A stretch of DNA of 64,000 nucleotides, from the IMG/VR virus record IMGVR_UViG_3300045988_066443. One strand, 5' to 3'. The DNA is from a virus. A program made the position numbers and the translations under genes. Of this stretch, positions 2,881-62,210 are shown one piece after another (positions within the stretch are counted from its first letter, which is position 1; each line of letters starts with the position of its first letter). The notes under the pieces are model-generated. The model had not been told where the DNA came from. It did not search any database and saw only the letters and a list, made by a program, of their open reading frames with translations.

Positions 2881-3133
2881 ATCCTTGTTTTACTAGCTCT
2901 TTCTCCATTTCGTCTAAAATATCATCAATGACATAGTCAGTTAGACAATCAGAGTCAGGAAAGCCTAAGTTCCGCAGATGATAATCTATATTATCTCCCG
3001 CTTCATTAAGTATCATCCAGCCTTCAACTTCTCCCTCTTCATCTTCCTTAAGTGTTTTCACCACTTGGTCGATTAACTTAGGGATATTCACATCGTAGTT
3101 CTTAACTACCTCTACATTATAACTTATTATCAT
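2870..3133 (-). CDS. hypothetical acidic protein (87 aa)
   Basis: ORF. Confidence 0.35.
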   Translation of the reverse strand: MIISYNVEVVKNYDVNIPKLIDQVVKTLKEDEEGEVEGWMILNEAGDNIDYHLRNLGFPDSDCLTDYVIDDILDEMEKELVKQGYEC

Positions 3134-5310: not shown

Positions 5311-5525
5311 CGTGTATCAAGTACAATAAAATTATCACACATTTTTATAACATTTACTTTAAGCCCTCCTTTCAAGGCGCGAGTATCACACACTTCATAT
5401 TTCTCTTCAAGAAGGGCTGCATTCTCTTTGGTTATCTTTACCCAATAAACCCCGTTTTTCTGCTTAGAGCCATTCCAGATTAGATGATTAACTAGCCAAA
5501 TATAGCGTTTTTCTACATCACCCAT
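5307..5525 (-). CDS. hypothetical protein (72 aa)
   Basis: ORF, start/stop overlap with neighbours. Confidence 0.3.
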   Translation of the reverse strand: MGDVEKRYIWLVNHLIWNGSKQKNGVYWVKITKENAALLEEKYEVCDTRALKGGLKVNVIKMCDNFIVLDTR

Positions 5526-12255: not shown

Positions 12256-14427
12256 TTAATTTACTTCTTTAGAATATGTTCTTTTCTCAGCTTCTATTCT
12301 TCTATCTTTACCAAAAGCAGTGATAGGTCTTAGATAGCCAATAATTCTGGTATATTGAGTAATATGTTCACTCCCACATTTAGGACATACCTTAATGGGA
12401 GCTTTCACAATATGTTTACAATCCTCGCACTTACTATTAGGAATATTGAACGTGAAGTAATTAGTTCCTTGCTGAATAGCAAAGTCTATAAGCTTCAAGT
12501 ATTGCTCCTTAGACAGATGTTCTTCCAAGTTAATGTGAGCTGCACTACCTCCATCTGTATACTGATAAGTCTGTCTTCCATGAAGTATAAACTTATCTAA
12601 TACTGATGTATCATCATGGGCATTATAGAAGTAACTATTGTATAGATTCCTATCTTCAGGAACCCAATAGCCATCTGCTTTATCCCATTTATAATTCTTA
12701 CCTCCTAGACCTTCTGCAGGTACTACCTCAGAATTAAATAAGAAGGGACGCTTTTTGTCATGGATAGAATGAAGTTTATTCTGCTCTTTTATTGTTCCAA
12801 GTATGAGCTGTAAAAACTCAAAATATTCTGGATTATTAGATACCTTCATTCCTAAGAACTCAGCAGCTTCATTCAGACCATTTAGCCCAATAGTGCTATA
12901 TAGGTCTTTGATGTTTATGTAACCTCCATTTGAAGAAGCAAACATCTTCTTATCCTCCCACTCATAGAGCATGGTCTTATAGGTAATGTGATACTTGTAT
13001 ACTCTCTCTAGAATATCTATTAGATATTTTTTGAGTAGGGCAACATTATCTTTACAATGCAAGAGATTTTTGTCTCCATCTTCACTCCACCAAGTAGTTT
13101 CTTGTCTAGCCCAATCTTGGACAATTCTGTTAATATTCAGAGTAATAACATTACAAGAACCTGTCTTTACACCAGTCATACCAGAAGTAGGACTAAATGT
13201 ATTTTCAGCTAATTCATTACGAAGACGACAACAAGATGCAAGACTATCTGCACTGTCTGAGATATAGGTAAAGAAACTATGACCTTGAGAATACATTTCT
13301 GCACATAAGTCTTTATAGTTCTTATCTATAATGTCTTTACCGTCATGCACCATAGCAAAGGTTTCTACTGGAAATGTCAGAACTTGTTTCAAGCGAAGCT
13401 TATTAAACCAAGACATGAACAATCTTTGTAAAGTATCAATTGCTACCCATTCCGGCTTAGTTCCATCTGGATAGTAAAATTCTCCAAATAGAGATTCAAA
13501 ATAGGTCTTATCATAGTACGAAACATTAGTGAAGGGAGATTGATAACTTCTGTTTCCAGCAGGTTGATTAATTCCCCAAACAAACTGTTTAAAAGCTTTA
13601 AGGATAGAGTCTTCGATAGTTCTCTTAATAAGAGAATGTTCCGAAGTACATATACAGTCGAGCTTCTCGTACCACTTTTCTCCGTATTCAGCAATAATAT
13701 AATAGTTAAGTGCAATAAAATAGCTACCTACAGCAACTGCTCCTTTACATTGAGAAGACAATAGAAATACTAAGTTAGTAACCTGCCCACTAAATGACTG
13801 CAAATCATTAGGAGGGCCAGGAGTAACTCCATCAATATTACCTACTCCCTCTAACATTAGAGGATATAACGAGACTGCCATACAATACTGTTTAAGTACT
13901 GACGTAGAAGCCTCATCGTGAGTATAAATAATATGATTGTCTAGGTCTCTAGAATATTGAGAAGAGAGTTCGGGATAAAGAAGTTTTAATTTCTTCTTCA
14001 TACGATAGCGCTGAATTTCTCTGTTCTCGCGCTTTCTATCCTCACTCTCTAATGTAGCAACGTTCTTAGATACAACATTAGCATTTCCATCTGTTTCAGA
14101 TGAAGTAGCTGCATTTTCGGAACTATTAATATAGTTATCTTGATAACTAATCTTAGCTATGATTTCTCTAAGTCTAGATTGTTCACTTCTATACTGAGAA
14201 TATGCTGAGGCTACATCATCGTAACCATAGTCCCTCAAGGTTTCTATTACTACGTCCTGAATCTCTTCTATAGTAATGCCGTCCCATAAATGCATATCAG
14301 CCACCATAGCTGTAATGACTTCTTTATTTTCTTCAGGACAGCAAGCATTAAATGCTTTAGATATTGCTTCTACTATCTTATTACCGTCAAATTCCTGTAA
14401 ACTTCCGTCTCTCTTTACTACTTGCAT
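12256..14427 (-). CDS. nrdD: anaerobic ribonucleoside-triphosphate reductase (class III)
   Basis: 723 aa; N-terminal ATP-cone (VVKRDGSLQEFDGNKIVEAI); C-terminal Zn ribbon CEDCKH..CPKCG and glycyl-radical motif RIIGYLRP. Confidence 0.85.
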   Translation of the reverse strand: MQVVKRDGSLQEFDGNKIVEAISKAFNACCPEENKEVITAMVADMHLWDGITIEEIQDVVIETLRDYGYDDVASAYSQYRSEQSRLREIIAKISYQDNYINSSENAATSSETDGNANVVSKNVATLESEDRKRENREIQRYRMKKKLKLLYPELSSQYSRDLDNHIIYTHDEASTSVLKQYCMAVSLYPLMLEGVGNIDGVTPGPPNDLQSFSGQVTNLVFLLSSQCKGAVAVGSYFIALNYYIIAEYGEKWYEKLDCICTSEHSLIKRTIEDSILKAFKQFVWGINQPAGNRSYQSPFTNVSYYDKTYFESLFGEFYYPDGTKPEWVAIDTLQRLFMSWFNKLRLKQVLTFPVETFAMVHDGKDIIDKNYKDLCAEMYSQGHSFFTYISDSADSLASCCRLRNELAENTFSPTSGMTGVKTGSCNVITLNINRIVQDWARQETTWWSEDGDKNLLHCKDNVALLKKYLIDILERVYKYHITYKTMLYEWEDKKMFASSNGGYINIKDLYSTIGLNGLNEAAEFLGMKVSNNPEYFEFLQLILGTIKEQNKLHSIHDKKRPFLFNSEVVPAEGLGGKNYKWDKADGYWVPEDRNLYNSYFYNAHDDTSVLDKFILHGRQTYQYTDGGSAAHINLEEHLSKEQYLKLIDFAIQQGTNYFTFNIPNSKCEDCKHIVKAPIKVCPKCGSEHITQYTRIIGYLRPITAFGKDRRIEAEKRTYSKEVN

Positions 14428-30559: not shown

Positions 30560-30980
30560 CTACTACATATTTTAAGATTTCATAACTTTCTTCCAGACCT
30601 GCCCTATCATCTAGGAGGATATTATAATAGGGTTTCTCAGAATTAGGAAATACAGGACTTTCATTTGTATATAGCTCAAAGTCTTCATCCAGACCTAATA
30701 ATTTAGCAGTTTTCATCTGTTTAATACATAGCTCTTGAAGATTTGTTTCACAGGTAAACAATATCAAATGAAATCCCAATTTATAACACTTATTAAGTAA
30801 ATTTATGACTTCACTATAATCTCCTCCATTATTATGGTAATCGAAAATAGTATTATCAAAATCGAAAGCGACTATTAGCTTTCCGTATTTATGATACTCT
30901 TCTAAGAGTCGTTTCTTGCAAGCTTCTTTCCCAAAAGGATGATTAAAGTCCACGGTCAATTCTTTGTCTAATTTCTTCAA
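30525..30980 (-). CDS. HAD-like hydrolase
   Basis: IVAFDFDNTIFDY (DxDxT motif). Confidence 0.45.
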   Translation of the reverse strand: MKKLDKELTVDFNHPFGKEACKKRLLEEYHKYGKLIVAFDFDNTIFDYHNNGGDYSEVINLLNKCYKLGFHLILFTCETNLQELCIKQMKTAKLLGLDEDFELYTNESPVFPNSEKPYYNILLDDRAGLEESYEILKYVVDEIKLNQQGNQ

Positions 30981-32493
30981 GAGAATATTCTTTCTTCAAG
31001 ATACCATCTTCAAAGACAGTCTCTAAGCATCCCTCTTTTTCCTCCTCGATTGAGACCTGGTCGGTAGCAGTATACTTCCCATCCAGACCTTTATAGACAG
31101 CAATCAAACCTTTCAAAGAGTTCTTAGTACCATCATCAGTTTTAGGATGTTTGAAGATTTCTTTCAACTCGCCATTTACTACGCAAGCAGTAGCCTTAAT
31201 AGCAAACCCAAGACTATCTCTACTTGCATACTGATAGGAATATGAACCTACTCCCAGAACGAGATTACAAGCCGCCATATGAGCGTTTTCTAATCTCAAG
31301 TAGATTTGCTTTTGACGTTCTAGAGTAATAGAATCTCCATAAAGCAGACCAACCTTAGTGCTAGGATAACGGTAATCCTTTGAAGTAGTATTCCATCCGA
31401 AGATTTTACCAAGCATATAATATGCCCCATAATATTGACCTTCGGACACTTCAACATACTCTGCATCGTCGTTAAACGGAGCATAGCAGCAATAATACTT
31501 ACCTTCTTTCATTCTGGTATTGAAGTGAGGATTAGTTCTCAACCCGCAGATTATATCTACTGGGTCTCCACTATCAGGACGGATTACTACTCTACCATCA
31601 CGAGCCATAATGTCTTTCTTCAGCTTGGGCAAGAAATTTTCAATTACATTCCAGAAATCCCAAGTATCAGATACAATAGAAACAAACCCAGAAGGATACA
31701 AATCATTAATTAGACGTTTGAAAGTGCCCAGCTCATCTTCCTCCCCTCCAGCACACATTACAGAGTGTTCTGTTGCTGGAACTGTAGCAGCAATCAATTC
31801 CTCGTCTGAATTAGCTCCATAATATTCTTCCAGGGCAGCAATAGCTGGAATAGTCTCACTTCCCACAAAAGAAGTCATATGCGCCATACCAGATATGATT
31901 GCAGCTTCCATTCCCGCCATACCTCGCATTGAGAAATCATGACAACAAAAACCAAGATTTACATCTGTTGGAAAACCAGTCTTGCAAGCATGACGATGTA
32001 GCTCTTTCTTATAAAGCCTAGCTCTAGTAGCAGATGTGCATGGCATCCACAAGGTACAGCTGATAATAGTCTCTAAGTAGTTAGTTAACCAAAAGAACTC
32101 GGGTAGGGTATTTGTAATGGTCATCATGGGAACCCGAATAGGGCACACAGAACCTTCAGGAAGAGCCTTTATGCGAATTGGTAGATACCCAAGGTCATAT
32201 AAAGCTTCAATATGTCTGTACCCAACGGATTCAATACCAACAAAGTTGTTTACTCTACGATAGAACATCTCCACAGCTTCCTTCTTTGGTAAATTAAAGA
32301 AGTTTTTCTCAAACTGTTTAATGAGATATTCTTTGATTAGGTATTGAATACCAAATACTACTGAACCTTCGGTTGCTTCTGGGAAGTATTTATTACTTCT
32401 AGGAGTCCAGTTACTATAAACTTGTTCAGTACCTTCGGGGTACATTCTGTGATGGCCCAATTTGTAACCATCTGTAGCATTAATTATTTCCAT
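30943..32493 (-). CDS. nadV: nicotinamide phosphoribosyltransferase (NAMPT/NadV)
   Basis: 516 aa; SDTWDFWN and VIRPDSGDPVD match the NAMPT SDSYDIYN / IIRPDSGNPLD signature; conserved C-terminal ...EYSLEEIRQR. Confidence 0.85.
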   Translation of the reverse strand: MEIINATDGYKLGHHRMYPEGTEQVYSNWTPRSNKYFPEATEGSVVFGIQYLIKEYLIKQFEKNFFNLPKKEAVEMFYRRVNNFVGIESVGYRHIEALYDLGYLPIRIKALPEGSVCPIRVPMMTITNTLPEFFWLTNYLETIISCTLWMPCTSATRARLYKKELHRHACKTGFPTDVNLGFCCHDFSMRGMAGMEAAIISGMAHMTSFVGSETIPAIAALEEYYGANSDEELIAATVPATEHSVMCAGGEEDELGTFKRLINDLYPSGFVSIVSDTWDFWNVIENFLPKLKKDIMARDGRVVIRPDSGDPVDIICGLRTNPHFNTRMKEGKYYCCYAPFNDDAEYVEVSEGQYYGAYYMLGKIFGWNTTSKDYRYPSTKVGLLYGDSITLERQKQIYLRLENAHMAACNLVLGVGSYSYQYASRDSLGFAIKATACVVNGELKEIFKHPKTDDGTKNSLKGLIAVYKGLDGKYTATDQVSIEEEKEGCLETVFEDGILKKEYSLEEIRQRIDRGL

Positions 32494-33308
32494 TCTAATT
32501 TTTTGTTAAAAGTTATTTCTTTTACTTCTTCAGTTTCGAGTTTTCCACCTTTGATAAAGTATTGGTGAATAAGAGTATTAATTGTTCTTGCTCCAAGAGT
32601 ATTATTGCGAAAAGAGCTTTCAAGATACCCTTTCAAATCACTAATGACTTGTTCTCTATTCACATTAAAGAATAAGTCAAGATAATTCTGTAACAAGTCT
32701 GAACACTCCAAGATAGAATACAAATCCTCTAGAGTGAGAGGTTTAGTATTGTAGATTAATCCTACTCTTCCAAGAAACTCTGTTTTAACTCCAAAGTCTC
32801 TTAGTCTATCTAATGTAATGTGAGGCTCATTATTGAACGCTCCGGCAAACACAAATAGTACATTATCAATAGGGACTGATATGTACTTCCCATAATCGCC
32901 AAAAACACTAGTAGTATCAGACTCTAAAAGTTTGAGAAACTCGTTCTGTACACTGGCAGTAGATTCATTAGCTAGTTGGCTATTAGTGTTTCCGTTGATG
33001 AAAAGTTTATCAAACTCGTCTACGAAGACTACGATAGGTGTGTGACTATAGTTAACAAGCGGAGATAGAATTTTGCTTAAACTATTTCCAGAAATACCCT
33101 CTTTAGTTATTTGAGCTGCATTAACTTCTAGAAAGTTAAGTTCATTCATATCACATAACTGTTTAATAGTAAAGCTCTTACCAGACCCACTCTCACCTGT
33201 AAGAATAAAGTGCGGTCTTATCTTGCAATTACTATTTACAAATACCTGAAATATTCTATTAACTTCCTTAATTAACTTGTCTTGCCCTATTATCTTACTC
33301 ATAGTCAA
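32484..33308 (-). CDS. AAA+ ATPase
   Basis: Walker A ILTGESGSGKSFT; Walker B VVFVDEFDKL. Confidence 0.6.
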   Translation of the reverse strand: MTMSKIIGQDKLIKEVNRIFQVFVNSNCKIRPHFILTGESGSGKSFTIKQLCDMNELNFLEVNAAQITKEGISGNSLSKILSPLVNYSHTPIVVFVDEFDKLFINGNTNSQLANESTASVQNEFLKLLESDTTSVFGDYGKYISVPIDNVLFVFAGAFNNEPHITLDRLRDFGVKTEFLGRVGLIYNTKPLTLEDLYSILECSDLLQNYLDLFFNVNREQVISDLKGYLESSFRNNTLGARTINTLIHQYFIKGGKLETEEVKEITFNKKLEWK

Positions 33309-35387: not shown

Positions 35388-35403
35388 AATTCTATTAATT
35401 AAA

Positions 35404-35838
35404 TTAATCCCACCAAGACCTCATACGTTCAAACTTTAGTTTGTTGTATAAGTACCAGGCTTTTTCTCTTCTCAGATAATCTTTAAGGATTGGGGTATTC
35501 CAATCGAGATCAGCAGCCTTAGGGTGGAATCGATTCCAATTTTTAGTATTTATGTGTCTATCTACAAATCCCTTTGACCCAGGTCTAAAGTCATGGTGAT
35601 ACGCAGAATCTATTTCTAGCACAATATCTAATAGCTTTAGTGCTAGATTTAGCTCTTTTTCGACACGTTCATTGCCTTCCGCAATTCTAGATACCTTAAA
35701 GTATTCATACATTCTAATTAGGGCTTGTTTCTCTAAAGAGAGAACAAATCCATAATCGAATGGATAAAACTTCATAGCTTCTTTGATAAGTTTCTTATTC
35801 TTATTCTTTCTTAGTTTCATATTCCTGACTTGCTTCAA
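35404..35838 (-). CDS. hypothetical basic protein (144 aa)
   Basis: ORF. Confidence 0.35.
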   Translation of the reverse strand: MKQVRNMKLRKNKNKKLIKEAMKFYPFDYGFVLSLEKQALIRMYEYFKVSRIAEGNERVEKELNLALKLLDIVLEIDSAYHHDFRPGSKGFVDRHINTKNWNRFHPKAADLDWNTPILKDYLRREKAWYLYNKLKFERMRSWWD

Positions 35839-36244: not shown

Positions 36245-36632
36245 CAGCAGTATTTACTCTCATGTTAGTTCCGAGTAATATTGCTATCTTTAGCAAATCG
36301 TCTTGATTGTCACAAAATATATTATCTAAAATATAGTTTGCGTAATCAACAATTCTAACTCTCTTTCCTATAGCACCATATTTTTCGTTAAGCCATTTAA
36401 GCTGAGGAGCAAAATCTTCTAGGTCGTCTCCTAAATGCCGTAAAGCCTTCCTAATAGGAACAGGAAACCACATTTTCTCCTTTATCCAGTCTAAATGACA
36501 ATAACCAAACGCAAATGCTCTACTTAAATCCTTCTGAATAAACTCGTCTAACTCGAAATTTCTCTCATGCCTACCAGCTTCCTCGAAATCATCTTTCAAA
36601 TCCTCACAAAAAATCTGATTAAATTCAATCAT
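36219..36632 (-). CDS. hypothetical protein (137 aa)
   Basis: ORF. Confidence 0.35.
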   Translation of the reverse strand: MIEFNQIFCEDLKDDFEEAGRHERNFELDEFIQKDLSRAFAFGYCHLDWIKEKMWFPVPIRKALRHLGDDLEDFAPQLKWLNEKYGAIGKRVRIVDYANYILDNIFCDNQDDLLKIAILLGTNMRVNTADEQARSVH

Positions 36633-37940: not shown

Positions 37941-38852
37941 TTACTTAGAGGAAGAGTCGCCTTGTCTCCTAATCTCTTCGAAAATATCTAAAAGATTCTT
38001 AGGCAAAGCGATTTTTAGTTTGGAAATACGTTCCATTTCAGAAGTTTTCCAACTATTGAAACGACTTCTCAACTCTCCTAATTCGGAGGTATATTTGTCG
38101 TATTTTGCTTTAAATTCAGCCATTTTCTCACGATACTCTTGTTCTTGAGTGTTAGAAAGTTTATTAACCTCCTCCTTAAGCTCAGCTTTAAGAGCATTTA
38201 ACTCCTTCTCGTAAGAACGATAGGTGTCTTGAAGAGACATGAACATATTGTCCACTTTTTCTACTTCGATGGTAGGGTCTTGGTAGTAGAGAATTAAATC
38301 TCTTCCAGAGCCTTCCTTATAGATAGGACAATTCTCAGCTGCATGAACTTCTTTTCGTGCTTTACTAAAGGCTCCTTTTGGATGAATATACTTTCCATAG
38401 GTAGAAGCAAACGCCTCTAATCTTAGGAATTTATTTCTCTTGTTAATATCCCACGACTTTATGATAGTCTCTTCAGTCGGAGAAGGTAGAGCTTCTGGAT
38501 ACTTAGGCTGCTCTGGCAGTCCTATTCCCTGACTTTCTGCCCAATCATCAAGCATAGTAGCAGATACTTTGCCAATCATTCCTTCTTTCTCTTTAATAGC
38601 TTCTCGTACCCAAGCACAAAAACTATTCATGGCAGCGACCTTTTCCAAATCATCTTTTATAAAGTCAAGGGACTTTTGTCCTACTGTCATTAACTGCTTT
38701 TCTCCTCCACCGATAGAGGCTACAGATACTTGAAAGAATTTCACATTATTCAAGCGTTCCTGTGCTGCTTGAATCATTTCTTGTGCGATGTTCGCATAGA
38801 AGTTTGCTGACGTAGAAGTCAACCCTTCATTTCCAAAAAATACACTGTTCAT
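37941..38852 (-). CDS. hypothetical coiled-coil protein (303 aa)
   Basis: ORF; by the line numbering the ATG falls at 38851-38853, so coordinates here may be off by 1. Confidence 0.45.
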   Translation of the reverse strand: MNSVFFGNEGLTSTSANFYANIAQEMIQAAQERLNNVKFFQVSVASIGGGEKQLMTVGQKSLDFIKDDLEKVAAMNSFCAWVREAIKEKEGMIGKVSATMLDDWAESQGIGLPEQPKYPEALPSPTEETIIKSWDINKRNKFLRLEAFASTYGKYIHPKGAFSKARKEVHAAENCPIYKEGSGRDLILYYQDPTIEVEKVDNMFMSLQDTYRSYEKELNALKAELKEEVNKLSNTQEQEYREKMAEFKAKYDKYTSELGELRSRFNSWKTSEMERISKLKIALPKNLLDIFEEIRRQGDSSSK

Positions 38853-38854
38853 AT

Positions 38855-39024
38855 TAGTTACGTTTTGTTAGTTTATCCACAACATTAATTATTGATTCTT
38901 CTCCTGCTATAAATCCATCACGATGAACATTTCTAAGTAAACTCTTCAGAGATTCTAATTCTTCATCTGACTTTAGAGTATTTTTTCTATATATTTCAAT
39001 AAGTTCTTCTATATATCTTTCCAT
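38855..39024 (-). CDS. hypothetical small protein (about 56 aa)
   Basis: manual translation MERYIEELIEIYRKNTLKSDEELESLKSLL...; TAA stop sits 1-2 nt before the next ATG. Confidence 0.3.
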
Positions 39025-39043
39025 ATTATTGATATTAAATTAG

Positions 39044-39055
39044 TACCCGAAGTGG
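39044..39055 (-). repeat. 12-nt duplicate of the tRNA-Leu(TAA) 3' acceptor strand (tacccgaagtgg)
   Basis: identical to 39783-39794; lies just past the stop of the GIY-YIG gene. Confidence 0.6.
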
Positions 39056-39057
39056 CA

Positions 39058-39694
39058 TTACTCTGGAAGTATGCCGTACTTCCATATGTAGCCATAAGCA
39101 TGGGTTATTTTATGATTGCAACAATCGGTGATATGTCTTTTGCAATTAACAGTTTTTGCTAGACCATTATCTACAAGCCATTGAGCTGCTTCTTCTCTTC
39201 CCCAGAAGTGCTATATATAATTGCCAGCCATATCAAATTGATCAATTTTCTTAGCAGACCCACCTCTGATTTTAATGTCATGAGCTTTCAATACTTTTCT
39301 TACAGTATCATCACTACATCCCACTTTCTCCGCAACTTTTTTTGCAAGTATATCCCATATTGTACAGTTCGATTATCTCTTGATAATCGTATAACTATGT
39401 TCCGTCACCACCCTTAGTAGCATTATAGCCTTTGGAGCCATAAGTTTCCAACTCTTTTATCCAATATACCTCTCTTTCTGAAAGTATGTTTTCGTCCTTT
39501 ACATATTCTAATTCCTCTACTATAAAGTTTTCAACTCCATATTTATTCATAGCATCATATAATGGACGTTTTTCACATCTTTCTTTTCGAGAATCCTTGC
39601 AGTGTTCCTAAAATCTTTCCTATATAGTAAAGAGGGTTTTACCAACGTATCTTTTATTGTTAATAATATTTGTAATGCAATAGATATATCCCAT
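39058..39694 (-). CDS. GIY-YIG homing endonuclease; intact only if 4 in-frame TAG codons are sense and one frame correction is made at an A7 run
   Basis: minus-strand translation MGYIYCITNIINNKRYVGKTLFTI[TAG]ERF[TAG]EHCKDSRKERCEKRPLYDAMNKYGVENFIVEELEYVKDENILSEREVYWIKELETYGSKGYNATKGGDGT[TAG]LYDYQEIIELYNMGYTCKK / frame change at aaaaaaa / VAEKVGCSDDTVRKVLKAHDIKIRGGSAKKIDQFDMAGNYI[TAG]HFWGREEAAQWLVDNGLAKTVNCKRHITDCCNHKITHAYGYIWKYGILPE*; no TAA/TGA internally. Confidence 0.5.
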
Positions 39695-39782
39695 ATCATA
39701 GACTATTTATAACATTATTAATAATTGATTGAATTAGCTTTACCCAAAACACACCACGTGGAGGTTTCAATCTTGTGTTTCT

Positions 39783-39867
39783 ACCCGAAGTGGGACTCGA
39801 ACCCACACGCCCATTACTGGGCATCAGAGCTTAAATCTGACGTGTCTACCAATTCCACCATTCGGGC
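39783..39867 (-). tRNA. tRNA-Leu (anticodon TAA), type II
   Basis: GCCCGAATGGTGGAATTGGTAGACACGTCAGATTTAAGCTCTGATG...GGGTTCGAGTCCCACTTCGGGTA; anticodon loop TTTAAGC; long variable arm. Confidence 0.8.
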
Positions 39868-39953
39868 ATAGTAATTAGCTATACTCACGTACCGCTAATC
39901 AACTTACTATAATAACAGTACAAGTGTTAAATTCAAAGTTAAAAACCGTTAAC

Positions 39954-40268
39954 TTATTTAAACTGCAAACAAATGTTAATAAATTTATCGACATCAGTTC
40001 CGCAATCTACATAATTCGGAGTGTTAGCTTCGAAGTATTTGAGAACAGCCTCTGTTCCAAAAAGTCCTATCTCTTCGAAATCATACCCCTCACCGTGAAT
40101 ATCCGATGTAGGCATATTTGGTCTGAATACTAACCAGGCTGTACCAGGAAATTCACAACACGTACAAACAGTCAATCCACTTTCCCTTAGTTTATCTAAG
40201 ATTTGTGGACTAACTGTTTTCAATACGACACAATTATCCGAGTTCTGCAAGTCGTTGTCTGATTTCAT
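39954..40268 (-). CDS. hypothetical protein (104 aa)
   Basis: ORF. Confidence 0.35.
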   Translation of the reverse strand: MKSDNDLQNSDNCVVLKTVSPQILDKLRESGLTVCTCCEFPGTAWLVFRPNMPTSDIHGEGYDFEEIGLFGTEAVLKYFEANTPNYVDCGTDVDKFINICLQFK

Positions 40269-44304: not shown

Positions 44305-44427
44305 TCAAATAGCAGAATTTTTTTTACTCTCTAACAGGTCTATCCGTCTTTGTTGATTTTCCTCGTATTCTTCAATAGCGTCAGAAATTGCTTTAAGTAT
44401 AGAAGATTCCTTCATAGCGCTACTCAT
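44305..44427 (-). CDS. hypothetical small protein (40 aa)
   Basis: manual translation MSSAMKESSILKAISDAIEEYEENQQRRIDLLESKKNSAI; below the ORF-track cutoff. Confidence 0.2.
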   Translation of the reverse strand: MSSAMKESSILKAISDAIEEYEENQQRRIDLLESKKNSAI

Positions 44428-45300: not shown

Positions 45301-45975
45301 CTACTGCACAATCAAGCTATAAGCTTCTTGCAACAGTTTAATAGTTGGAACCATACGGTTATCAACAACTATTATTTTATAAATGTTCAGAATTTCTTTG
45401 TAGGTTAAAGATGTACAAGTTAGAAATATCTGCGCATCTTCGTTTACAGAACCATTTGACAATCCCAAATCTACTTTAATCATACTGGGTAATGTTCCAA
45501 TCTGAGAAATGTCCCAAGTAGATTTAGTTCTCCTGAAAACTTCCCGCTGTTTGGAAGTAAGTTGCTTTTCTTTCAATCTAGACTCAATAATAGTACCATC
45601 AAACGTTAACGAACCTCCATCGGTATTACTATTATTTAATGCTAGCTGAATCTTCTGAACTGCAGAGTCTTTAGGTTTTGGCTTAAGTTGCACTCCTTCC
45701 TTCAAGCCCTTAATAATCTGCAATGAAGGAATAAAGTCTTTTATTTGAGTTGCATTCCATACAAGAAATTTTCCAGGACTATCCTTAACAGTAACTATAT
45801 ACTTAGTCCCTCCGTTCAATGGAATAATCACTTGTAAGTCTGCATCACTCATTTTACTTAAATGGTCTGATACTCTAACTTTGACGTTTCCAATGACAAA
45901 GTAGCGAGAAACAGTTGTTTCCGCTTCGATAATCTCAGTAGCAGTTGCTACTAAATACTTTTCTAATCTAGTCAT
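45301..45975 (-). CDS. hypothetical protein (224 aa), TAG-terminated
   Basis: ORF; stop is TAG with an in-frame TAA 5 codons downstream. Confidence 0.4.
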   Translation of the reverse strand: MTRLEKYLVATATEIIEAETTVSRYFVIGNVKVRVSDHLSKMSDADLQVIIPLNGGTKYIVTVKDSPGKFLVWNATQIKDFIPSLQIIKGLKEGVQLKPKPKDSAVQKIQLALNNSNTDGGSLTFDGTIIESRLKEKQLTSKQREVFRRTKSTWDISQIGTLPSMIKVDLGLSNGSVNEDAQIFLTCTSLTYKEILNIYKIIVVDNRMVPTIKLLQEAYSLIVQ

Positions 45976-46191: not shown

Positions 46192-46205
46192 GTGTGAACT
46201 GGATA

Positions 46206-46757
46206 TTAATCCAGACTAATTAAACCTTTCTCTAACATGATATGATGATTTGGACATAGCCATACTAAGTTAGCTTCATCATTAATCTCTTTGATTAGAG
46301 TATCTTTGTCAAATTCAAGTATTCCTTTTAGATGATGAACTTCGAGTATTTCATCAAATTCGTGATTATGGCAGTATTGACATACTTTTTCACGAACGGA
46401 ATTTTCTAATACCTTACGGGCATTAGTTCTTATTTCTTGACATTTAGACGATAAGTACTTTTGTCCAGATATGTAATATCCCAATGTTTTATTTTCTACT
46501 CCATTGAGTTCTTCCCAGCATTTACGACATATTTCTGAATCTTTATGCTTAGGTTTACCACATCTAGGACAAATCTTGTCCTCACTATGCTTAGCTCTAC
46601 TTCTATTATTATAGGAGGCAGCACAGGAATGACTACAGAATTGTTTCTTCCTTACGTCTGTGATTCTCTGATTATCTAGTACTTCGATTACCTTACCACA
46701 TTCTTTACAGTGATTAGGATTCTCATAATACAACTTAAGAGATTGTTCTCGGTTCAC
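46206..46757 (-). CDS. HNH endonuclease
   Basis: 183 aa; Zn-finger Cys pairs; HNH motif EVHHLKG...NLVWLCPNHHIMLE. Confidence 0.65.
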   Translation of the reverse strand: MNREQSLKLYYENPNHCKECGKVIEVLDNQRITDVRKKQFCSHSCAASYNNRSRAKHSEDKICPRCGKPKHKDSEICRKCWEELNGVENKTLGYYISGQKYLSSKCQEIRTNARKVLENSVREKVCQYCHNHEFDEILEVHHLKGILEFDKDTLIKEINDEANLVWLCPNHHIMLEKGLISLD

Positions 46758-46895
46758 AGATAGATTTAATTTAGTTTTAATGACAGTGTGATATGCAAGC
46801 CATTACACCACAGCCTCGAAAATGCAGGTATTTATCTCGTTACACCTGCGAGTCCGGCAATCCTTTCTTATATACCGCGTGAGCTGGCGGTTTTG

Positions 46896-46969: not shown

Positions 46970-47058
46970 ATTTCTCTTTGTACCACCGTGCAAAATGCAC
47001 ATTTGTAAGTATCTTTATATCAGGATACCTCCCGTGCCAGGAATTGCTACAAAGAATG

Positions 47059-47621
47059 TGGACCTAACGGGAGTCGAACCCGTGTCCAAACAACCCTCGT
47101 TACAAGGATAACGTGCGTCTCATTTTTATTACACCAGCTAGGGAGTTCTAGCATTTAGGTAGTTTTATAAGTCTTACAAGAGTCCATACTAAGTATTTCT
47201 CTAGATGCTTATCTACAAGCTACCAAACTATAGGGCTGACCGAAGTCAACGTTCCACCACTCCATTTTACGTTGGAGAACGGGATGATACTTTAGAGATT
47301 CGTCACATCTCATGGAACACATCTTCCATCTGTTTTATGACATAGGAGATTCAGTCTTACTAACTCTTAGAGTGTTCCGATTAAGAGTATATTACTAGGA
47401 TTAGAGCCTAGCTCTCCATTATATCAATATACTCAACCTCTTCTGTTTCTAGGTCTCTCCTGTAACCCGACTTAGTTAATAGTGTCTACCAACAAGCCAG
47501 CAGCTTAGGCTGCCATTCTTACTTCGCTATAAGTAGCATTTATTGTTTTTCCTTCGTTTAAAGAGATTGCGCTCTACACGTCCTTATAATTTGTAATCGC
47601 CTGTCAAATCCAAGTAGGCCC
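47059..47621 (-). ncRNA. ssrA: tmRNA (ssrA-like transfer-messenger RNA)
   Basis: 563-nt ORF-free span. 5' end GGGCCTACTTGGATTTGACAGG matches the tmRNA 5' consensus GGGGCUGAUUCUGGAUUCGACGGG. 3' end GGACACGGGTTCGACTCCCGTTAGGTCCA is a tRNA-like T-arm. 7-bp acceptor pairing carries the G3-U70 alanine identity pair and discriminator A73. Candidate tag ORF ...AAU|GCU ACU UAU AGC GAA GUA AGA AUG GCA GCC UAA (ATYSEVRMAA). Confidence 0.7.
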
Positions 47622-47661: not shown

Positions 47662-47913
47662 TTATAACATTATAGTTGTACCCTCAGGTAGTGTTCGTAA
47701 CTTAGTATTAGTATAGTCTCTAGCACCCTTACTAAATATCTCAGGATAGTAAGAACAACTTCCTAATATAAATAGTGCAAGTCCACATCTTTGAATTATA
47801 TCTCCGTTAGATACTGTTCCATCCTCAAACCATTCTATCACTTCTGCAAATTCTCCATCCTTTAGGTCTTTAAGTTGGATTATATCAGAGGCCCTATTTA
47901 CTACTTTTGCCAT
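47662..47913 (-). CDS. hypothetical protein (83 aa)
   Basis: ORF. Confidence 0.35.
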   Translation of the reverse strand: MAKVVNRASDIIQLKDLKDGEFAEVIEWFEDGTVSNGDIIQRCGLALFILGSCSYYPEIFSKGARDYTNTKLRTLPEGTTIML

Positions 47914-49506: not shown

Positions 49507-49579
49507 TGGACACGCAGGGACTCGAACCCTATCTTCCGGTGTGCAAAACCAGCGCTCTAGCCATTTGAGCTAACGGCCC
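49507..49579 (-). tRNA. tRNA-Ala (anticodon TGC), acceptor stem imperfect
   Basis: GGGCCGTTAGCTCAAATGGCTAGAGCGCTGGTTTTGCACACCGGAAGATAGGGTTCGAGTCCCTGCGTGTCCA; loop TTTGCAC; G3-U70 present but base pairs 5-7 do not pair with 66-68. Confidence 0.5.
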
Positions 49580-51141: not shown

Positions 51142-51158
51142 AGGATTATTTCCAAATA
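51142..51158 (-). repeat. 17-nt duplicate of the 3' end of the CAT tRNA-like gene (tgcggaggtaggatt)
   Basis: matches 51867-51883; lies just past the stop of the second GIY-YIG gene. Confidence 0.6.
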
Positions 51159-51205
51159 AATTTATATGCAGTTTTCAATTTCCCTTTTACACATAAACTA
51201 ATCTT

Positions 51206-51781
51206 CTAGCGAACACCTCCATTATAAGTTTTAGCATAACCATTGTCTACTAACCAGTGTGCAGCATCGGCTATACTGTTCCAAGTCCTGATAAAGTTAT
51301 TATTTAAATCATACTGAGATATTGATACAGGTTGCTTGCAACTTCCCAAATAAAATTTGTTCTTTGGTATATTGTTTATATTTATTACTTTAGAAACTGT
51401 ATCAACAGAACATTGCATTTTGGCGGAAACTTCAATCATTGTCATTCCGCTAGTATATAAAGATATTATTTCTTTATAATCGAATAAGATAGCTCCATCG
51501 CCTCCCATAGTAGCATTATAGCCATTTGAGTATGTGTCTAGCTTATCTATAAATTGAATTTCATAAGAAGCTAATTCCTCATCATCACATTCATACAGCT
51601 ACTCAACTATGAAGTTCTCGATCCCATACTTGTTCATAGCATCATATAGCGGCCTCTTTTCACATCTTTCCTTCTTGCAATCATTACAATGTTCTTTAAA
51701 TCTCTTAGTTACAGAATAAGTAGTTTTTCCAACATACTATTTTCCATTAATTAAATTTGTAATACAATAAATATATCCCAT
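51206..51781 (-). CDS. GIY-YIG homing endonuclease; full length only if 2 in-frame TAG codons are read as sense
   Basis: MGYIYCITNLINGK[TAG]YVGKTTYSVTKRFKEHCNDCKKERCEKRPLYDAMNKYGIENFIVE[TAG]LYECDDEELASYEIQFIDKLDTYSNGYNATMGGDGAILFDYKEIISLYTSGMTMIEVSAKMQCSVDTVSKVININNIPKNKFYLGSCKQPVSISQYDLNNNFIRTWNSIADAAHWLVDNGYAKTYNGGVR*. Single frame throughout. The first TAG (51737-51739) lies between the GIY and YVG motifs. Confidence 0.55.
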
Positions 51782-51865
51782 GTTCTATTCTTATTTAAAA
51801 TTAAACATATTAGTAAGATTAGCGTTATCCAACTCACACCACGTGGAGGTTCTTACTTGTGAGTC

Positions 51866-51945
51866 TTGCGGAGGTAGGATTCGAACCGTTTATGACGATT
51901 TCTAGGTTATGAGCCTAGCGAGATGACCAACTTCTCTACTCCACG
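51866..51945 (-). tRNA. tRNA-like gene with CAT anticodon, initiator-like C1 opposite A72, degenerate T-stem
   Basis: CGTGGAGTAGAGAAGTTGGTCATCTCGCTAGGCTCATAACCTAGAAATCGTCATAAACGGTTCGAATCCTACCTCCGCAA. Perfect D and anticodon arms, conserved GGTTCGAATCC, but T-stem pairs poorly and the variable region is 11 nt. Confidence 0.35.
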
Positions 51946-57443: not shown

Positions 57444-57457
57444 ATTTGTTAATTTTG

Positions 57458-57529
57458 TTGGGCTACTAGGACTCGAACCTAGACTGACAGAATCAAAATC
57501 TGTAGTGCTAACCATTACACCATAGCCCA
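57458..57529 (-). tRNA. tRNA-Gln (anticodon TTG)
   Basis: TGGGCTATGGTGTAATGGTTAGCACTACAGATTTTGATTCTGTCAGTCTAGGTTCGAGTCCTAGTAGCCCAA. Confidence 0.85.
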
Positions 57530-61654: not shown

Positions 61655-62210
61655 ATTATAATGAAACCTTATATTTATCCCAATCACTGGTTAATGTCAA
61701 GGCTCCTTTAACATTTATTTCACTTGAGGGAATCTCATACATGTCCCCAGTTATAACTACTACAAATACTACATCACAAGTAGAATTATCAAAATGTCTA
61801 ATCTTAGAATCTCCAGATGAACCTCCGCAATTCTTCAACAAGACTTCATAATTTCCACTCTTTACCTAATGTTGAGTAGTTTTAACTGATACTCTCTTCA
61901 AACCCTCTTTATCTACTACAATGTCATATTTCTATGTATCATTCAAGGGAATTAGGACCGGAATGCAATGAGCAGTATAGTATGCTATAGCTCTTCCTAG
62001 TCCTAAATTCCCTTGATGAGATTTATACTAACTTTCCCAAGCGTTCATTTTTTACAAAATTTGTATTAGATTTTCATCTTTACGATTACATTAAACCTGA
62101 CTCTGCCACCCTTCCAAAAGCTAGTCTTATGACTAGCTAAGAATCATACCAAGAAGCAATAATACACAGAATATAGCTAGAATACACCAGCCTATAGCCT
62201 GGATTGCTCC

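What the first reader, a model, noticed from the sequence alone, without database searches (positions are those of the whole stretch)
39058..39694. Second, diverged GIY-YIG endonuclease with four in-frame TAG codons plus an A7 homopolymer frame change
An independent paralogue, clearly diverged from the first copy, shows the same pattern. Translation from the ATG at 39694 gives MGYIYCITNIINNKRYVGKTLFTI-TAG-ERF-TAG-EHCKDSRKERCEKRPLYDAMNKYG...GGDGT-TAG-LYDYQEII... and later ...NYI-TAG-HFWGREEAAQWLVDNGLAKT...GILPE*. All four internal stops are TAG, again at positions where TIEERWKEH-like homologues carry E, K or Q. The only other defect is a 1-nt frame change at a run of seven A (tgcaaaaaaagttgcg). 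That is more consistent with a homopolymer sequencing error or programmed slippage than with decay. Six of six internal stops in two diverged copies being TAG argues strongly against chance.
Basis: seen in the sequence. Interest (0 to 1): 0.7.

Follow-up and report, generated by a model that had tools for sequence, protein, structure and literature searches.

The report
TAG-recoded homing endonuclease cassette after tRNA
The four TAG "stops" in this endonuclease gene are not damage, because this gut phage reads TAG as glutamine; the gene sits in a small mobile insert (self-cleaving ribozyme plus homing endonuclease) lodged behind a tRNA gene, and only the extra A is a real defect or a sequencing error.

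Summary
Window 39058..39694 (-) encodes a 211-codon GIY-YIG/HTH homing endonuclease with four in-frame TAGs and one frame change at an A7 run.

The TAGs are sense codons.
- A contig 99.9% identical to the window carries a Gln-like tRNA(CUA) 8.4 kb beyond the window end.
- In a close relative, the portal gene has 28 in-frame TAGs and the terminase gene 16.
- In homologues, TAG falls in conserved Gln columns.
- All ten internal stops in the window's three TAG-bearing endonuclease genes are TAG.

This is known biology (code 15, late-gene recoding). Recoded homing endonucleases in early regions have already been discussed for TGA-recoded phages.

A7 is private to the window: six independent relatives have A6, which gives an intact frame. 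Error and fresh mutation cannot be separated here; programmed slippage is unsupported.

The new part is the context. The gene belongs to a 738-bp indel containing:
- a minimal HDV-like ("theta") ribozyme starting one base after tRNA-Leu;
- the endonuclease gene;
- a 12-nt repeat of the tRNA 3' end.

Thirty-four related contigs have the empty site. The family sits behind many different tRNAs, like T4 SegB.

Side lead: a different phage clade carrying this family appears to read TAG as tyrosine.

The parts
39058..39694 (-). GIY-YIG + HTH homing endonuclease gene (copy 2). It has 211 codons once one A of the A7 run is removed, four in-frame TAGs (first bases 39622, 39610, 39397, 39213) and a TAA stop.
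   Evidence: Intact 211-aa versions with the same four TAGs occur in L001, L008, L135 and L136.
39337..39343 (-). A7 homopolymer that shifts the frame. It is A6 in all six relatives examined.
   Evidence: The window also has a second private homopolymer difference, T6 against T7 at about 56471.
39727..39781 (-). Minimal HDV-like ('theta') self-cleaving ribozyme. G1 (39781) lies directly after the tRNA-Leu discriminator base, and the ribozyme ends 32 nt before the endonuclease ATG.
   Evidence: Rfam RF02682 scores 28.7 bits, E=8e-4, full-length match with P4 deleted; this is below the gathering score of 44. P1 and P2 covary across 39 distinct sequences.
39782..39868 (-). tRNA-Leu(UAA). Its last 12 nt (39793-39782, CCACTTCGGGTA) are repeated after the endonuclease stop codon.
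39044..39055 (-). 12-nt direct repeat of the tRNA-Leu 3' end, 2 nt after the endonuclease stop. It marks the distal edge of the 738-bp indel (39044-39781).
   Evidence: The empty site, with the tRNA joined directly to CTAATTT..., occurs in 34 IMG/VR contigs.
51146..51781 (-). Paralogous GIY-YIG endonuclease gene (copy 1), intact, with three in-frame TAGs (first bases 51739, 51601, 51208). None of these positions is shared with copy 2.
51801..51865 (-). Second theta/HDV-like ribozyme, directly after tRNA-Met (51866-51945) and upstream of copy 1. A 16-nt repeat of the tRNA-Met 3' end overlaps the copy 1 stop codon.
   Evidence: RF02682 25.2 bits, E=5e-3.
61656..62048 (-). PD-(D/E)XK (PF11645) endonuclease gene with three in-frame TAGs (first bases 62030, 61934, 61868), immediately upstream of tRNA-Ser.
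   Evidence: The public gene calls read it through as 130 aa. The TAG at 61934 aligns with Gln in L036 and L109.
57457..57529 (-). Phage tRNA-Gln(UUG), the closest relative of the amber-suppressor tRNA(CUA). The suppressor lies outside the window at L002:1604-1676 (minus strand).

Best explanation
The window is the replication and tRNA arm of a roughly 186-190 kb uncultivated human-gut phage that reads TAG as glutamine late in infection.

The gene at 39058..39694 is a free-standing, SegB-like GIY-YIG homing endonuclease written in that late code. TAG encodes 4 of its 7 Gln positions, the same share as in the portal and terminase genes. The roughly 100 surrounding early genes contain no internal TAG.

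The gene is the cargo of a 738-bp insertion behind tRNA-Leu(UAA). The insertion consists of a minimal HDV-like (theta) ribozyme whose cleavage site is the tRNA's 3' end, then the endonuclease ORF, then a 12-nt copy of the tRNA 3' end.

Inferred mechanism (not shown):
1. The cassette is co-transcribed with the early tRNA array.
2. The ribozyme cuts the transcript exactly at the tRNA discriminator base. This releases the tRNA for end repair and CCA addition by the phage's own enzymes and frees the endonuclease mRNA.
3. That mRNA yields only 24-residue fragments until the phage's tRNA-Gln(CUA) accumulates.
4. The enzyme then cuts cassette-free tRNA alleles of co-infecting relatives in or near the T-arm, and repair copies ribozyme plus gene into them.

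In this particular genome the gene also carries a +1 A in a homopolymer. This is either an assembly error or a very recent inactivating mutation.
For: TAG = Gln in this phage
- L002 is 99.9% identical to the window over 10.6 kb. It carries a 73-nt tRNA(CUA) whose D-arm and overall sequence are closest to the phage tRNA-Gln(UUG).
- Genes around that tRNA have in-frame TAGs.
- In L091, which is 97-99% identical to L002 in shared segments, the portal has 28 TAGs and TerL has 16.
- TAG recurs in the two invariant Gln columns of the GIY-YIG family (Q152: L010, L011, L025; Q161: window, L008, L017, L019, L025).
- TAG aligns with Gln in PD-(D/E)XK homologues.
- Gln is the most enriched residue opposite TAG, 10.3% against a 3.0% background.
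- Only 3 of about 100 non-endonuclease genes end in TAG.

The gene is, or recently was, functional
- There are 14 synonymous against 5 non-synonymous codon differences to L008, with the TAGs kept.
- The paralogues share no TAG position.

Mobility
- The tRNA + ribozyme + endonuclease block is about 97% identical between the window and L008, while flanking genes are 75-80% identical.
- 34 contigs have the precise empty site, in both flank lineages.
- In 11 of 12 loci examined, the family sits 18-105 nt behind a tRNA or tmRNA.
- A 12-16 nt duplication of the RNA's 3' end is seen in three independent contexts: Leu, Met and tmRNA.

Ribozyme
- Rfam hits at both copies.
- 86 of 118 IMG/VR matches to the 15-nt core also form the HDV-like P1 and P2 helices.
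- 12 of 13 variable pairs covary.
- A GIY-YIG gene of this family lies within 1 kb after 15 of 54 ribozyme-bearing tRNA contexts, against 45 of 729 without a ribozyme.

A7
- It is A6 in L001, L008, L024/L133, L134, L135 and L136.
Against: - No protein or RNA evidence is available. Timing, co-transcription, ribozyme cleavage and endonuclease specificity are all inferred.
- The suppressor tRNA and the TAG-rich late genes lie outside the window, in near-identical or closely related contigs rather than in the window itself.
- One of the four TAGs (codon 100) sits in a column that is mostly I/L/V.
- Three early genes appear to use TAG as a real stop, so TAG is not purely a sense codon.
- The ribozyme-endonuclease link is partial. 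About three quarters of sampled ribozymes of this core type have no endonuclease gene of this family downstream, and three quarters of tRNA-adjacent genes of the family have no ribozyme. The ribozyme could therefore be a passenger carried by co-conversion rather than an integral part.
- Both Rfam ribozyme hits are below the family's gathering score.
- Two other alleles of this gene are clearly decayed, so this allele may be dead too.
Confidence: 0.8

Rival explanations
1. The gene is an ordinary decaying pseudogene. On this view the TAGs are nonsense mutations and the A7 run is one more lesion.
For: Homing endonuclease genes do decay. L024/L133 carries a 5-bp deletion, a 1-bp insertion and two 8-bp deletions, and L134 has lost its 3' half. 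The window allele has a frameshift.
Against: All 10 internal stops in three endonuclease genes are TAG, with no TAA or TGA. The same four TAGs are kept in four intact alleles, including one in a genome whose flanks are only 75-80% identical. Synonymous differences outnumber non-synonymous ones 14 to 5. TAG sits in invariant Gln columns. The phage has a suppressor tRNA and TAG-rich essential genes.
Confidence: 0.03
2. The TAGs are sense codons, but this allele is truly dead. On this view A7 is a real, recent +1 mutation, so in this genome the gene is a fresh pseudogene at the start of the usual invade-fix-decay cycle.
For: Other alleles are in various states of decay. Homopolymer slippage is the fastest class of mutation (my knowledge). 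No other lesion has accumulated, which fits a very recent event.
Against: A7 is seen in one assembly out of seven. Against L007 the window shows 0 substitutions and a single homopolymer indel in 10.6 kb. Its T6 at about 56471 is T7 in all four comparators. That pattern also fits homopolymer miscalls in the assembly.
Confidence: 0.45
3. The A7 run is a programmed +1 ribosomal or transcriptional slippage site that produces full-length enzyme at a low level.
For: A_AAA_AAA_G is slippery in principle (my knowledge). A low endonuclease dose would be tolerable for the phage.
Against: All intact relatives are in frame with A6. The K-K dipeptide is not conserved in the family, where it is KK, KR or KQ. 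No stimulatory element is conserved, and A7 is shorter than runs that give efficient transcriptional slippage (my knowledge).
Confidence: 0.03
4. The ribozyme is not part of the endonuclease element. On this view theta ribozymes are tRNA-processing devices of the phage, and the endonuclease gene merely landed, or is co-converted, next to one.
For: 59 of 80 evaluable ribozymes of this core type have no GIY-YIG gene of this family downstream. Several of them follow suppressor tRNAs. Kienbeck et al. 2024 (PMC10879173) explain these ribozymes by tRNA maturation alone.
Against: At this site the 34 empty alleles lack both ribozyme and gene, so the two are gained or lost together. The same architecture recurs behind Leu(UAA), Leu(UAG), Met, Pro, Cys, Gln, His and Ala tRNAs and behind tmRNA. 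The chance of a GIY-YIG gene within 1 kb is 28% with a ribozyme against 6% without. A standard-code phage (L027) also has an HDV-like ribozyme, with P4, 25 nt before its homologue.
Confidence: 0.35

Closest known systems
Code-15 (TAG to Gln) stop-codon-recoded gut phages (Ivanova 2014 and Yutin 2021 from my knowledge; Borges et al. preprint 10.1101/2021.08.26.457843; Peters et al. PMC9523058)
   Same: The phage encodes its own suppressor tRNA(CUA). In-frame TAGs are concentrated in structural and packaging genes and absent from replication genes. TAG is depleted as a stop codon. Borges et al. already describe an endonuclease (intron-encoded, in TGA-recoded Agate phages) that is preferentially recoded inside an early gene, and they propose that this delays its production.
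   Different: Here the recoded codon is TAG. The endonuclease genes are free-standing in a tRNA array rather than intron-encoded. Three separate endonuclease genes (two GIY-YIG, one PD-(D/E)XK) are the only TAG-bearing genes in 64 kb.
T4 SegB, a GIY-YIG homing endonuclease in the T4 tRNA gene cluster (Brok-Volchanskaya et al. 2008, PMC2330249)
   Same: It is a free-standing GIY-YIG gene embedded among phage tRNA genes. [quoted passage not shown] Here the family sits directly behind many different tRNAs and tmRNA, and the duplicated segments begin in the T-loop or T-stem 3' strand. Distribution among relatives is sporadic.
   Different: Only generic GIY-YIG similarity was found to cultured-phage enzymes (about 30-45% identity in the catalytic domain). 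No cleavage data exist for this family. SegB has no associated ribozyme and no recoded stop codons.
Theta ribozymes, minimal HDV-like ribozymes next to phage tRNAs (Kienbeck et al. 2024, PMC10879173)
   Same: It is a minimal HDV-like fold lacking P4, with its cleavage site at the tRNA 3' end. It occurs in gut Caudoviricetes that recode TAG and carry CCA-adding and RNA-ligase genes. Met and Leu tRNAs are frequent partners.
   Different: That paper's text does not mention endonucleases, homing or GIY-YIG. Here the ribozyme is gained and lost together with a homing endonuclease gene, which would explain why one ribozyme sequence can sit next to many tRNA isotypes. The suppressor tRNA of this phage has no ribozyme after it.
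HDV-like ribozymes at the 5' ends of R2 and other non-LTR retrotransposons (my knowledge; compare PMC11331408)
   Same: A mobile element inserted into a highly transcribed RNA gene uses a 5' HDV-like ribozyme to cut itself out of the host co-transcript.
   Different: Those are eukaryotic, RNA-mediated elements. This one is a DNA-level homing cassette in a phage.

Membership tests
GIY-YIG homing endonucleases (I-TevI / Seg type) | N-terminal GIY-YIG catalytic domain with the conserved Tyr, Tyr, Arg, His, Glu and Asn residues | tested here: met
   PF01541 scores 1.3e-11 over the full 78-position profile. Y5, Y16, R27, H31, E75 and N91 are invariant in 16 homologues and present in the window gene.
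GIY-YIG homing endonucleases (I-TevI / Seg type) | C-terminal DNA-binding module (HTH / NUMOD) joined by a linker | tested here: met
   HTH_28, HTH_7 and HTH_23 hits at residues 103-137. Copy 1 also has a weak NUMOD1 hit, below the Pfam cut-off.
GIY-YIG homing endonucleases (I-TevI / Seg type) | Sporadic presence or absence at a fixed site among close relatives, with flanks less conserved than the element | tested here: met
   7 filled and 34 empty sites. The block is 97% identical against 75-80% for the flanks.
GIY-YIG homing endonucleases (I-TevI / Seg type) | Site-specific cleavage of the element-free allele and biased inheritance in co-infection | not testable with these tools
   Needs purified enzyme and phage crosses.
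Code-15 (TAG to Gln) recoded phage | Phage-encoded suppressor tRNA with a CUA anticodon and Gln identity | tested here: met
   L002:1604-1676 (minus strand), in a contig 99.9% identical to the window. It is class I, has U1-A72, and is closest to the phage tRNA-Gln(UUG). Charging was not testable.
Code-15 (TAG to Gln) recoded phage | Many in-frame TAGs in essential late genes that are otherwise intact | tested here: met
   Portal 28, TerL 16, and two other ORFs 15 and 5, in L091. PHROG portal 1.8e-47 and terminase 8.3e-63.
Code-15 (TAG to Gln) recoded phage | TAG aligns with Gln in homologues that use CAA or CAG | tested here: met
   Enrichment is 3.4-fold, the highest of any residue.
Code-15 (TAG to Gln) recoded phage | Peptide evidence for Gln at TAG | not testable with these tools
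   Requires metaproteomics, as in PMC9523058.
HDV-like / theta ribozyme | Nested double-pseudoknot order P1-P2-P3-P1'-P1.1-(P4)-J4/2 C-P2', with G1 at the cleavage site | tested here: met
   Hand parse of 7 sequences. Descriptor hits. In 39 distinct sequences P1 and P2 are 100% paired, with 255 double-sided changes, and G1.U occurs 29 times and G1-C 10 times. Caveat: P1 and P2 pairing was a selection criterion. The independent figure is that 86 of 118 hits to the core alone form both helices.
HDV-like / theta ribozyme | Match to a curated HDV-like covariance model at its gathering score | tested here: not met
   RF02682 scores 28.7 and 25.2 bits against a gathering score of 44. The shortfall comes from the missing P4. 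Rfam's default scan found nothing there.
HDV-like / theta ribozyme | Self-cleavage that is abolished by mutating the J4/2 cytosine | not testable with these tools
   Needs in-vitro transcription. Kienbeck et al. showed it for four other members.

The most novel reading that the evidence does not exclude
Theta ribozyme plus TAG-written GIY-YIG gene plus tRNA-end repeat is one self-insulating mobile cassette that homes into the T-arm end of phage tRNA and tmRNA genes.

On this reading the ribozyme makes insertion harmless by restoring the exact tRNA 3' end and detaching the endonuclease mRNA. The amber codons keep the nuclease silent until the phage's own suppressor is made. They also confine functional transfer to phages that share the same amber meaning.

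This would explain why identical theta ribozymes sit next to up to 13 tRNA isotypes (PMC10879173). It would also explain why a clade that appears to read TAG as Tyr carries homologues of the same family with TAG at Tyr positions.
Probability: 0.4. Interest if true: 0.65.

Novelty: new variant of a known kind. Interest (0 to 1): 0.5.

Why it matters
These genes must be called with TAG as Gln, or they and the phage's late genes will be mis-annotated as pseudogenes.

What adds value is the architecture around the gene. A homing endonuclease brings a self-cleaving ribozyme with it when it inserts behind a tRNA. This links two recently described features of recoded gut phages, theta ribozymes and late-code gating, to an old one, SegB-type tRNA-cluster homing.

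It gives a testable account of how theta ribozymes spread among tRNA isotypes. It also offers compact natural parts: a 55-nt ribozyme that trims tRNA 3' ends, and an amber-gated nuclease.

The side observation of an apparent amber-to-Tyr phage clade would, if confirmed, extend the set of phage genetic codes beyond TAG to Gln and TGA to Trp.

Tried and rejected
I used an exact DNA pattern scan instead.
- The promoter/terminator scan of 38800-40000 gave only consensus noise and no terminator, so nothing is claimed about transcription units.
- The near and protein-level searches of cultured phages found no close relative except the unannotated 25-kb MT836666.1.
- A PDB ClpP alignment meant to read the residue opposite a TAG in the L037 phage started three residues too late.
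- Crude per-locus counts of TAG in non-endonuclease ORFs of related loci were contaminated by non-coding frames and other endonuclease genes, and I did not use them.
- MAFFT on raw ribozyme seeds misaligned the helices. I forced the register with N-padding.
- My first strict ribozyme descriptor missed known members, and a relaxed one gave AT-rich false positives. Only hits with the ACC/GGT P3 and the conserved L3 were kept.
- The Rfam-only 'tRNA' at 49507-49579 is a degenerate Ala-like sequence, not a suppressor.
- No tRNA(CUA) was found in contig positions 39410-71414 of the Tyr-type phage.
- I rejected pyrrolysine, despite ARAGORN's 'tRNA-Pyl' label. The label is automatic for CUA anticodons, and the alignments show Gln.
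Full report
**1. The observation**

On the minus strand an ATG at 39694 opens a GIY-YIG reading frame that ends at TAA 39060-39058. It has in-frame TAGs starting at 39622, 39610 and 39397. A run of seven A (39343-39337) then shifts the frame, and a fourth TAG follows at 39213. With one A removed, the product is 211 aa.

Pfam assigns a GIY-YIG catalytic domain (1.3e-11) and a helix-turn-helix module.

The window holds two more endonuclease genes with the same peculiarity:
- a paralogous GIY-YIG gene at 51146..51781, with three TAGs and no frameshift;
- a PD-(D/E)XK gene at 61656..62048, with three TAGs.

All ten internal stops are TAG.

**2. What the window is**

All genes lie on the minus strand and GC is about 36%. 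There are 21 ARAGORN tRNAs plus a tmRNA.

The large ORFs encode RNA ligase, DNA ligase, NrdD, helicases, NAMPT and a sigma factor. This is the replication and tRNA arm of a large phage.

Public contigs carrying identical genes reach 186-192 kb and come from human-gut samples. No cultured relative exists in the phage collection.

**3. TAG is a sense codon in this phage**

- *Suppressor tRNA.* L002 is 99.9% identical to the window over the shared 10.6 kb and extends 10 kb beyond coordinate 64000. It carries a 73-nt tRNA with anticodon CUA. This tRNA is class I, begins with U1-A72, and is most similar to the phage's own tRNA-Gln(UUG).
- *Neighbouring genes.* Genes around it contain in-frame TAGs, including an HNH endonuclease gene.
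- *Late genes.* Ten kilobases further on, in a strain 97-99% identical in shared segments (L091), the portal gene has 28 in-frame TAGs and the large terminase gene 16. Both are otherwise intact and hit the PHROG portal and terminase families.
- *Alignment with Gln.* In the GIY-YIG family, TAG recurs in the two invariant Gln columns. In the PD-(D/E)XK family, the window's middle TAG aligns with Gln in two homologues. Gln is the residue most enriched opposite TAG, 10.3% against 3.0%.
- *Gene calls.* The public gene calls for these contigs already read TAG through.

Within the window, a table-11 gene set of 103 genes uses TAA 66 times, TGA 32 times and TAG 5 times. Two of the five TAG cases are fragments of the endonuclease genes. 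The gaps between genes hide no other TAG-bridged ORF.

TAG supplies 43-60% of the Gln positions in the three endonuclease genes. In the portal and terminase genes it supplies 50-64%.

This is the pattern described for stop-codon-recoded gut phages. The Borges et al. preprint even reports an endonuclease in an early gene of TGA-recoded phages that is preferentially recoded, and proposes delayed production.

**4. The A7 run**

Six independently assembled relatives have A6 and hence one continuous frame: L001 (MT836666.1), L008, L024/L133, L134, L135 and L136. L001, L008, L135 and L136 are fully intact and keep the same four TAGs.

L024/L133 has four frame-breaking indels and L134 has lost the 3' half. 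The gene therefore does decay in some lineages.

Against its nearest relatives, the window differs almost only by homopolymer lengths. Against L007 it shows 0 substitutions and 1 homopolymer indel in 10.6 kb. Its T6 at about 56471 is T7 in four of four comparators. That fits either homopolymer miscalls or the fastest natural mutation class.

I cannot separate these without reads. I rate error and real mutation about equally likely. Programmed slippage is unlikely: intact relatives are in frame and the K-K dipeptide is not conserved.

**5. The gene is mobile**

Between the window and L008, flanking genes are 75-80% identical. The block from tRNA-Leu through the endonuclease stop is about 97% identical. 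Within the ORF there are 14 synonymous and 5 non-synonymous codon differences.

I predicted that an empty site would read tRNA T-arm + CCACTTCGGGTA + CTAATTT. The exact 25-mer occurs in 34 IMG/VR contigs. These represent both flank lineages, and 21 of them carry a flank identical to the window's.

The filled allele differs from the empty one by 738 bp (39044-39781) bounded by a 12-nt direct repeat of the tRNA 3' end. Copy 1 shows the same geometry with 16 nt of tRNA-Met. A homologue in L019 shows it with 12 nt of a tmRNA.

In 11 of 12 loci examined, the family sits 18-105 nt behind a tRNA or tmRNA of varying identity. This matches T4 SegB, a GIY-YIG endonuclease in the T4 tRNA cluster whose recognition site contains the T-psi-C stem-loop motif. 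That the present family recognises the T-arm is my inference.

**6. The spacer is a ribozyme**

Lining up the tRNA-to-ATG spacers revealed a conserved core, ACCTCCACGTGG, flanked by two pairs of covarying arms in the order A-B-core-A'-...-B'. That order is the HDV-like double pseudoknot:
- P1 is 7 bp and starts at a G directly after the tRNA discriminator base;
- P2 follows;
- P3 is ACC/GGT with a 7-nt L3;
- P1.1 is CC/GG;
- there is no P4;
- a C in J4/2 is conserved.

Rfam's HDV-F-prausnitzii model matches both window copies end to end with P4 deleted: 28.7 bits (E=8e-4) and 25.2 bits (E=5e-3). Both scores are below the gathering score of 44.

These are the 'theta' ribozymes that Kienbeck et al. 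(2024) found next to tRNAs of recoded gut phages and showed to self-cleave. Their text does not mention endonucleases or homing.

The empty alleles lack the ribozyme as well as the gene. At this site the two are therefore gained or lost as one unit.

**7. How general the link is**

I sampled IMG/VR by the 15-nt ribozyme core alone. Of these, 86 also form P1 and P2.

Downstream of those 86 lie:
- a GIY-YIG gene of this family in 21 cases;
- an HNH gene in 2;
- the next tRNA in 17;
- other ORFs in 40;
- too little sequence in 6.

I then counted distinct tRNA contexts from loci that were not fetched through the endonuclease query. A GIY-YIG gene lies within 1 kb after 15 of 54 tRNAs with a ribozyme, against 45 of 729 without one. 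My arithmetic gives an odds ratio of about 5.8 and a chi-square of about 33. The contexts are phylogenetically related, so this is not a clean P value.

Covariation on 39 distinct ribozymes shows 12 of 13 variable pairs changing on both sides, with G1.U in 29 sequences and G1-C in 10. P1 and P2 pairing was a selection criterion for these sequences. The 86-of-118 figure is the independent support.

The association is therefore real but partial. The ribozyme may be an integral part of the cassette, or it may be a passenger carried by co-conversion.

**8. Mechanism (inferred)**

1. The cassette is transcribed with the early tRNA array.
2. The ribozyme cuts at the tRNA's discriminator base.
3. The phage's RNA-repair and CCA-adding enzymes finish the tRNA. 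Relevant genes are the RNA ligase at 3130-4497 and, just beyond the window, PolyA_pol/CCA-type, PNKP-type and Thg1 genes.
4. The detached endonuclease mRNA cannot be translated past codon 25 until tRNA-Gln(CUA) is available. That tRNA lies in a separate, oppositely oriented block.

None of these steps has been observed.

**9. Side lead outside the window**

One carrier of the family reads differently. This is L037/L309, contig IMGVR_UViG_3300018495_000098. Its in-frame TAGs fall on conserved tyrosines.
- In the endonuclease genes, the Y of the YIG motif is Tyr in 97% of 107 family members.
- In unrelated genes, examples are VYGVKID#IVAGHTH (Tyr in 15 of 15 homologues) and three sites in an RNA-polymerase-like protein (39-41 of 42).
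- Tyr is the top homologue residue at 10 of 12 TAG positions.
- In a 79%-identical relative (L310), Tyr is the top residue at 5 of 8 positions.

L310 also carries an 87-nt class II tRNA(CUA). It has an A73 discriminator, and its acceptor stem and variable arm resemble tRNA-Tyr(GUA).

The Borges et al. preprint states that only TAG-to-Gln and TGA-to-Trp were seen in phages whose code differs from the host's. My text searches found no phage amber-to-Tyr report. This lead deserves its own study.

**10. Verdict**

The recoding is already-known biology. The ribozyme-endonuclease-repeat cassette behind a tRNA is a new variant that joins three known elements. Interest is moderate.

Noticed in passing
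L037 / L171 / L309 (IMGVR_UViG_3300018495_000098, contig 39410-71414) and L310 (IMGVR_UViG_3300045988_185107, tRNA at 12457-12543): A different TAG-recoded phage clade carrying homologues of the same endonuclease families has in-frame TAG at conserved tyrosine positions. Tyr is the top homologue residue at 10 of 12 sites in L309 and 5 of 8 in L310. L310 has an 87-nt class II tRNA(CUA) resembling tRNA-Tyr. This looks like an amber-to-Tyr code, which I did not find reported for phages (literature).
   Followed up: partly
L031:4683-4776 (IMGVR_UViG_3300028048_000053): A 94-nt tRNA(CUA) with a long variable arm, a G73 discriminator and an encoded CCA. It is of the Ser-like class II type, which suggests a third amber meaning among carriers of this endonuclease family.
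   Followed up: no
window 47056-47621 (-): A phage-encoded tmRNA (Rfam RF00023, 62.5 bits, above the gathering score) that ARAGORN missed in the window. In relative L019 ARAGORN gives a tag peptide, and a copy of the GIY-YIG cassette with ribozyme sits directly behind the tmRNA.
   Followed up: partly
window 30625-30797, 31014-31195, 32499-32691, 35396-35566, 36342-36495, 38001-38222: Six segments of about 150-220 bp are present in the window but absent from the otherwise 99.2-99.6% identical MT836666.1 (L001). They could be small mobile inserts or deletions in the relative.
   Followed up: no
window 46192-46894 (-), frame 2: An HNH endonuclease-like ORF between tRNA-Asp and tRNA-Ile has no in-frame TAG and no obvious ATG start. 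Not every endonuclease gene in the tRNA array is written in the late code.
   Followed up: no
window 44420-44422, 45301-45303, 47894-47896 (-): Three apparently early genes end in TAG, with a back-up TAA or TGA 3-9 codons further on. One back-up stop lies inside tRNA-Glu. TAG may act as a stop early in infection and be read through late.
   Followed up: partly
window ~56471 and ~55672: Homopolymer-length differences from near-identical contigs. T6 in the window is T7 in L002, L005, L006 and L007 (private to the window). A6 in the window is A5 in L002, L005 and L006, while L007 shares the window's A6. This bears on whether the A7 run is an error.
   Followed up: partly
L020:6001-6636: A chimeric GIY-YIG gene. 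Its N-terminal part resembles the L011 copy, and its C-terminal part and downstream tRNA-Met-type repeat resemble the window's copy 1, although it sits behind tRNA-Cys. This is evidence of recombination between cassettes.
   Followed up: no
L138:~5380-5464: In one empty-site contig the 5' half of tRNA-Leu(UAA) is replaced by unrelated sequence right at the anticodon loop. It could be an insertion or intron in the tRNA.
   Followed up: no
window 3130-4497 (-), and L088:17062-19821 (just beyond window position 1): The phage carries an RNA ligase in the window and, just beyond it, a PolyA_pol/CCA-adding-type enzyme, a PNKP-like kinase/phosphatase and Thg1. This tRNA repair and maturation set is what would be needed to finish tRNAs left with a 2',3'-cyclic phosphate by a ribozyme. 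Kienbeck et al. report similar enrichment.
   Followed up: no
L027:5902-5969 (IMGVR_UViG_3300045988_174305): A standard-code phage, whose homologous GIY-YIG gene has no TAG, has an HDV-like ribozyme with a P4 hairpin 25 nt upstream of the gene. The ribozyme-endonuclease pairing is therefore not limited to recoded phages.
   Followed up: no
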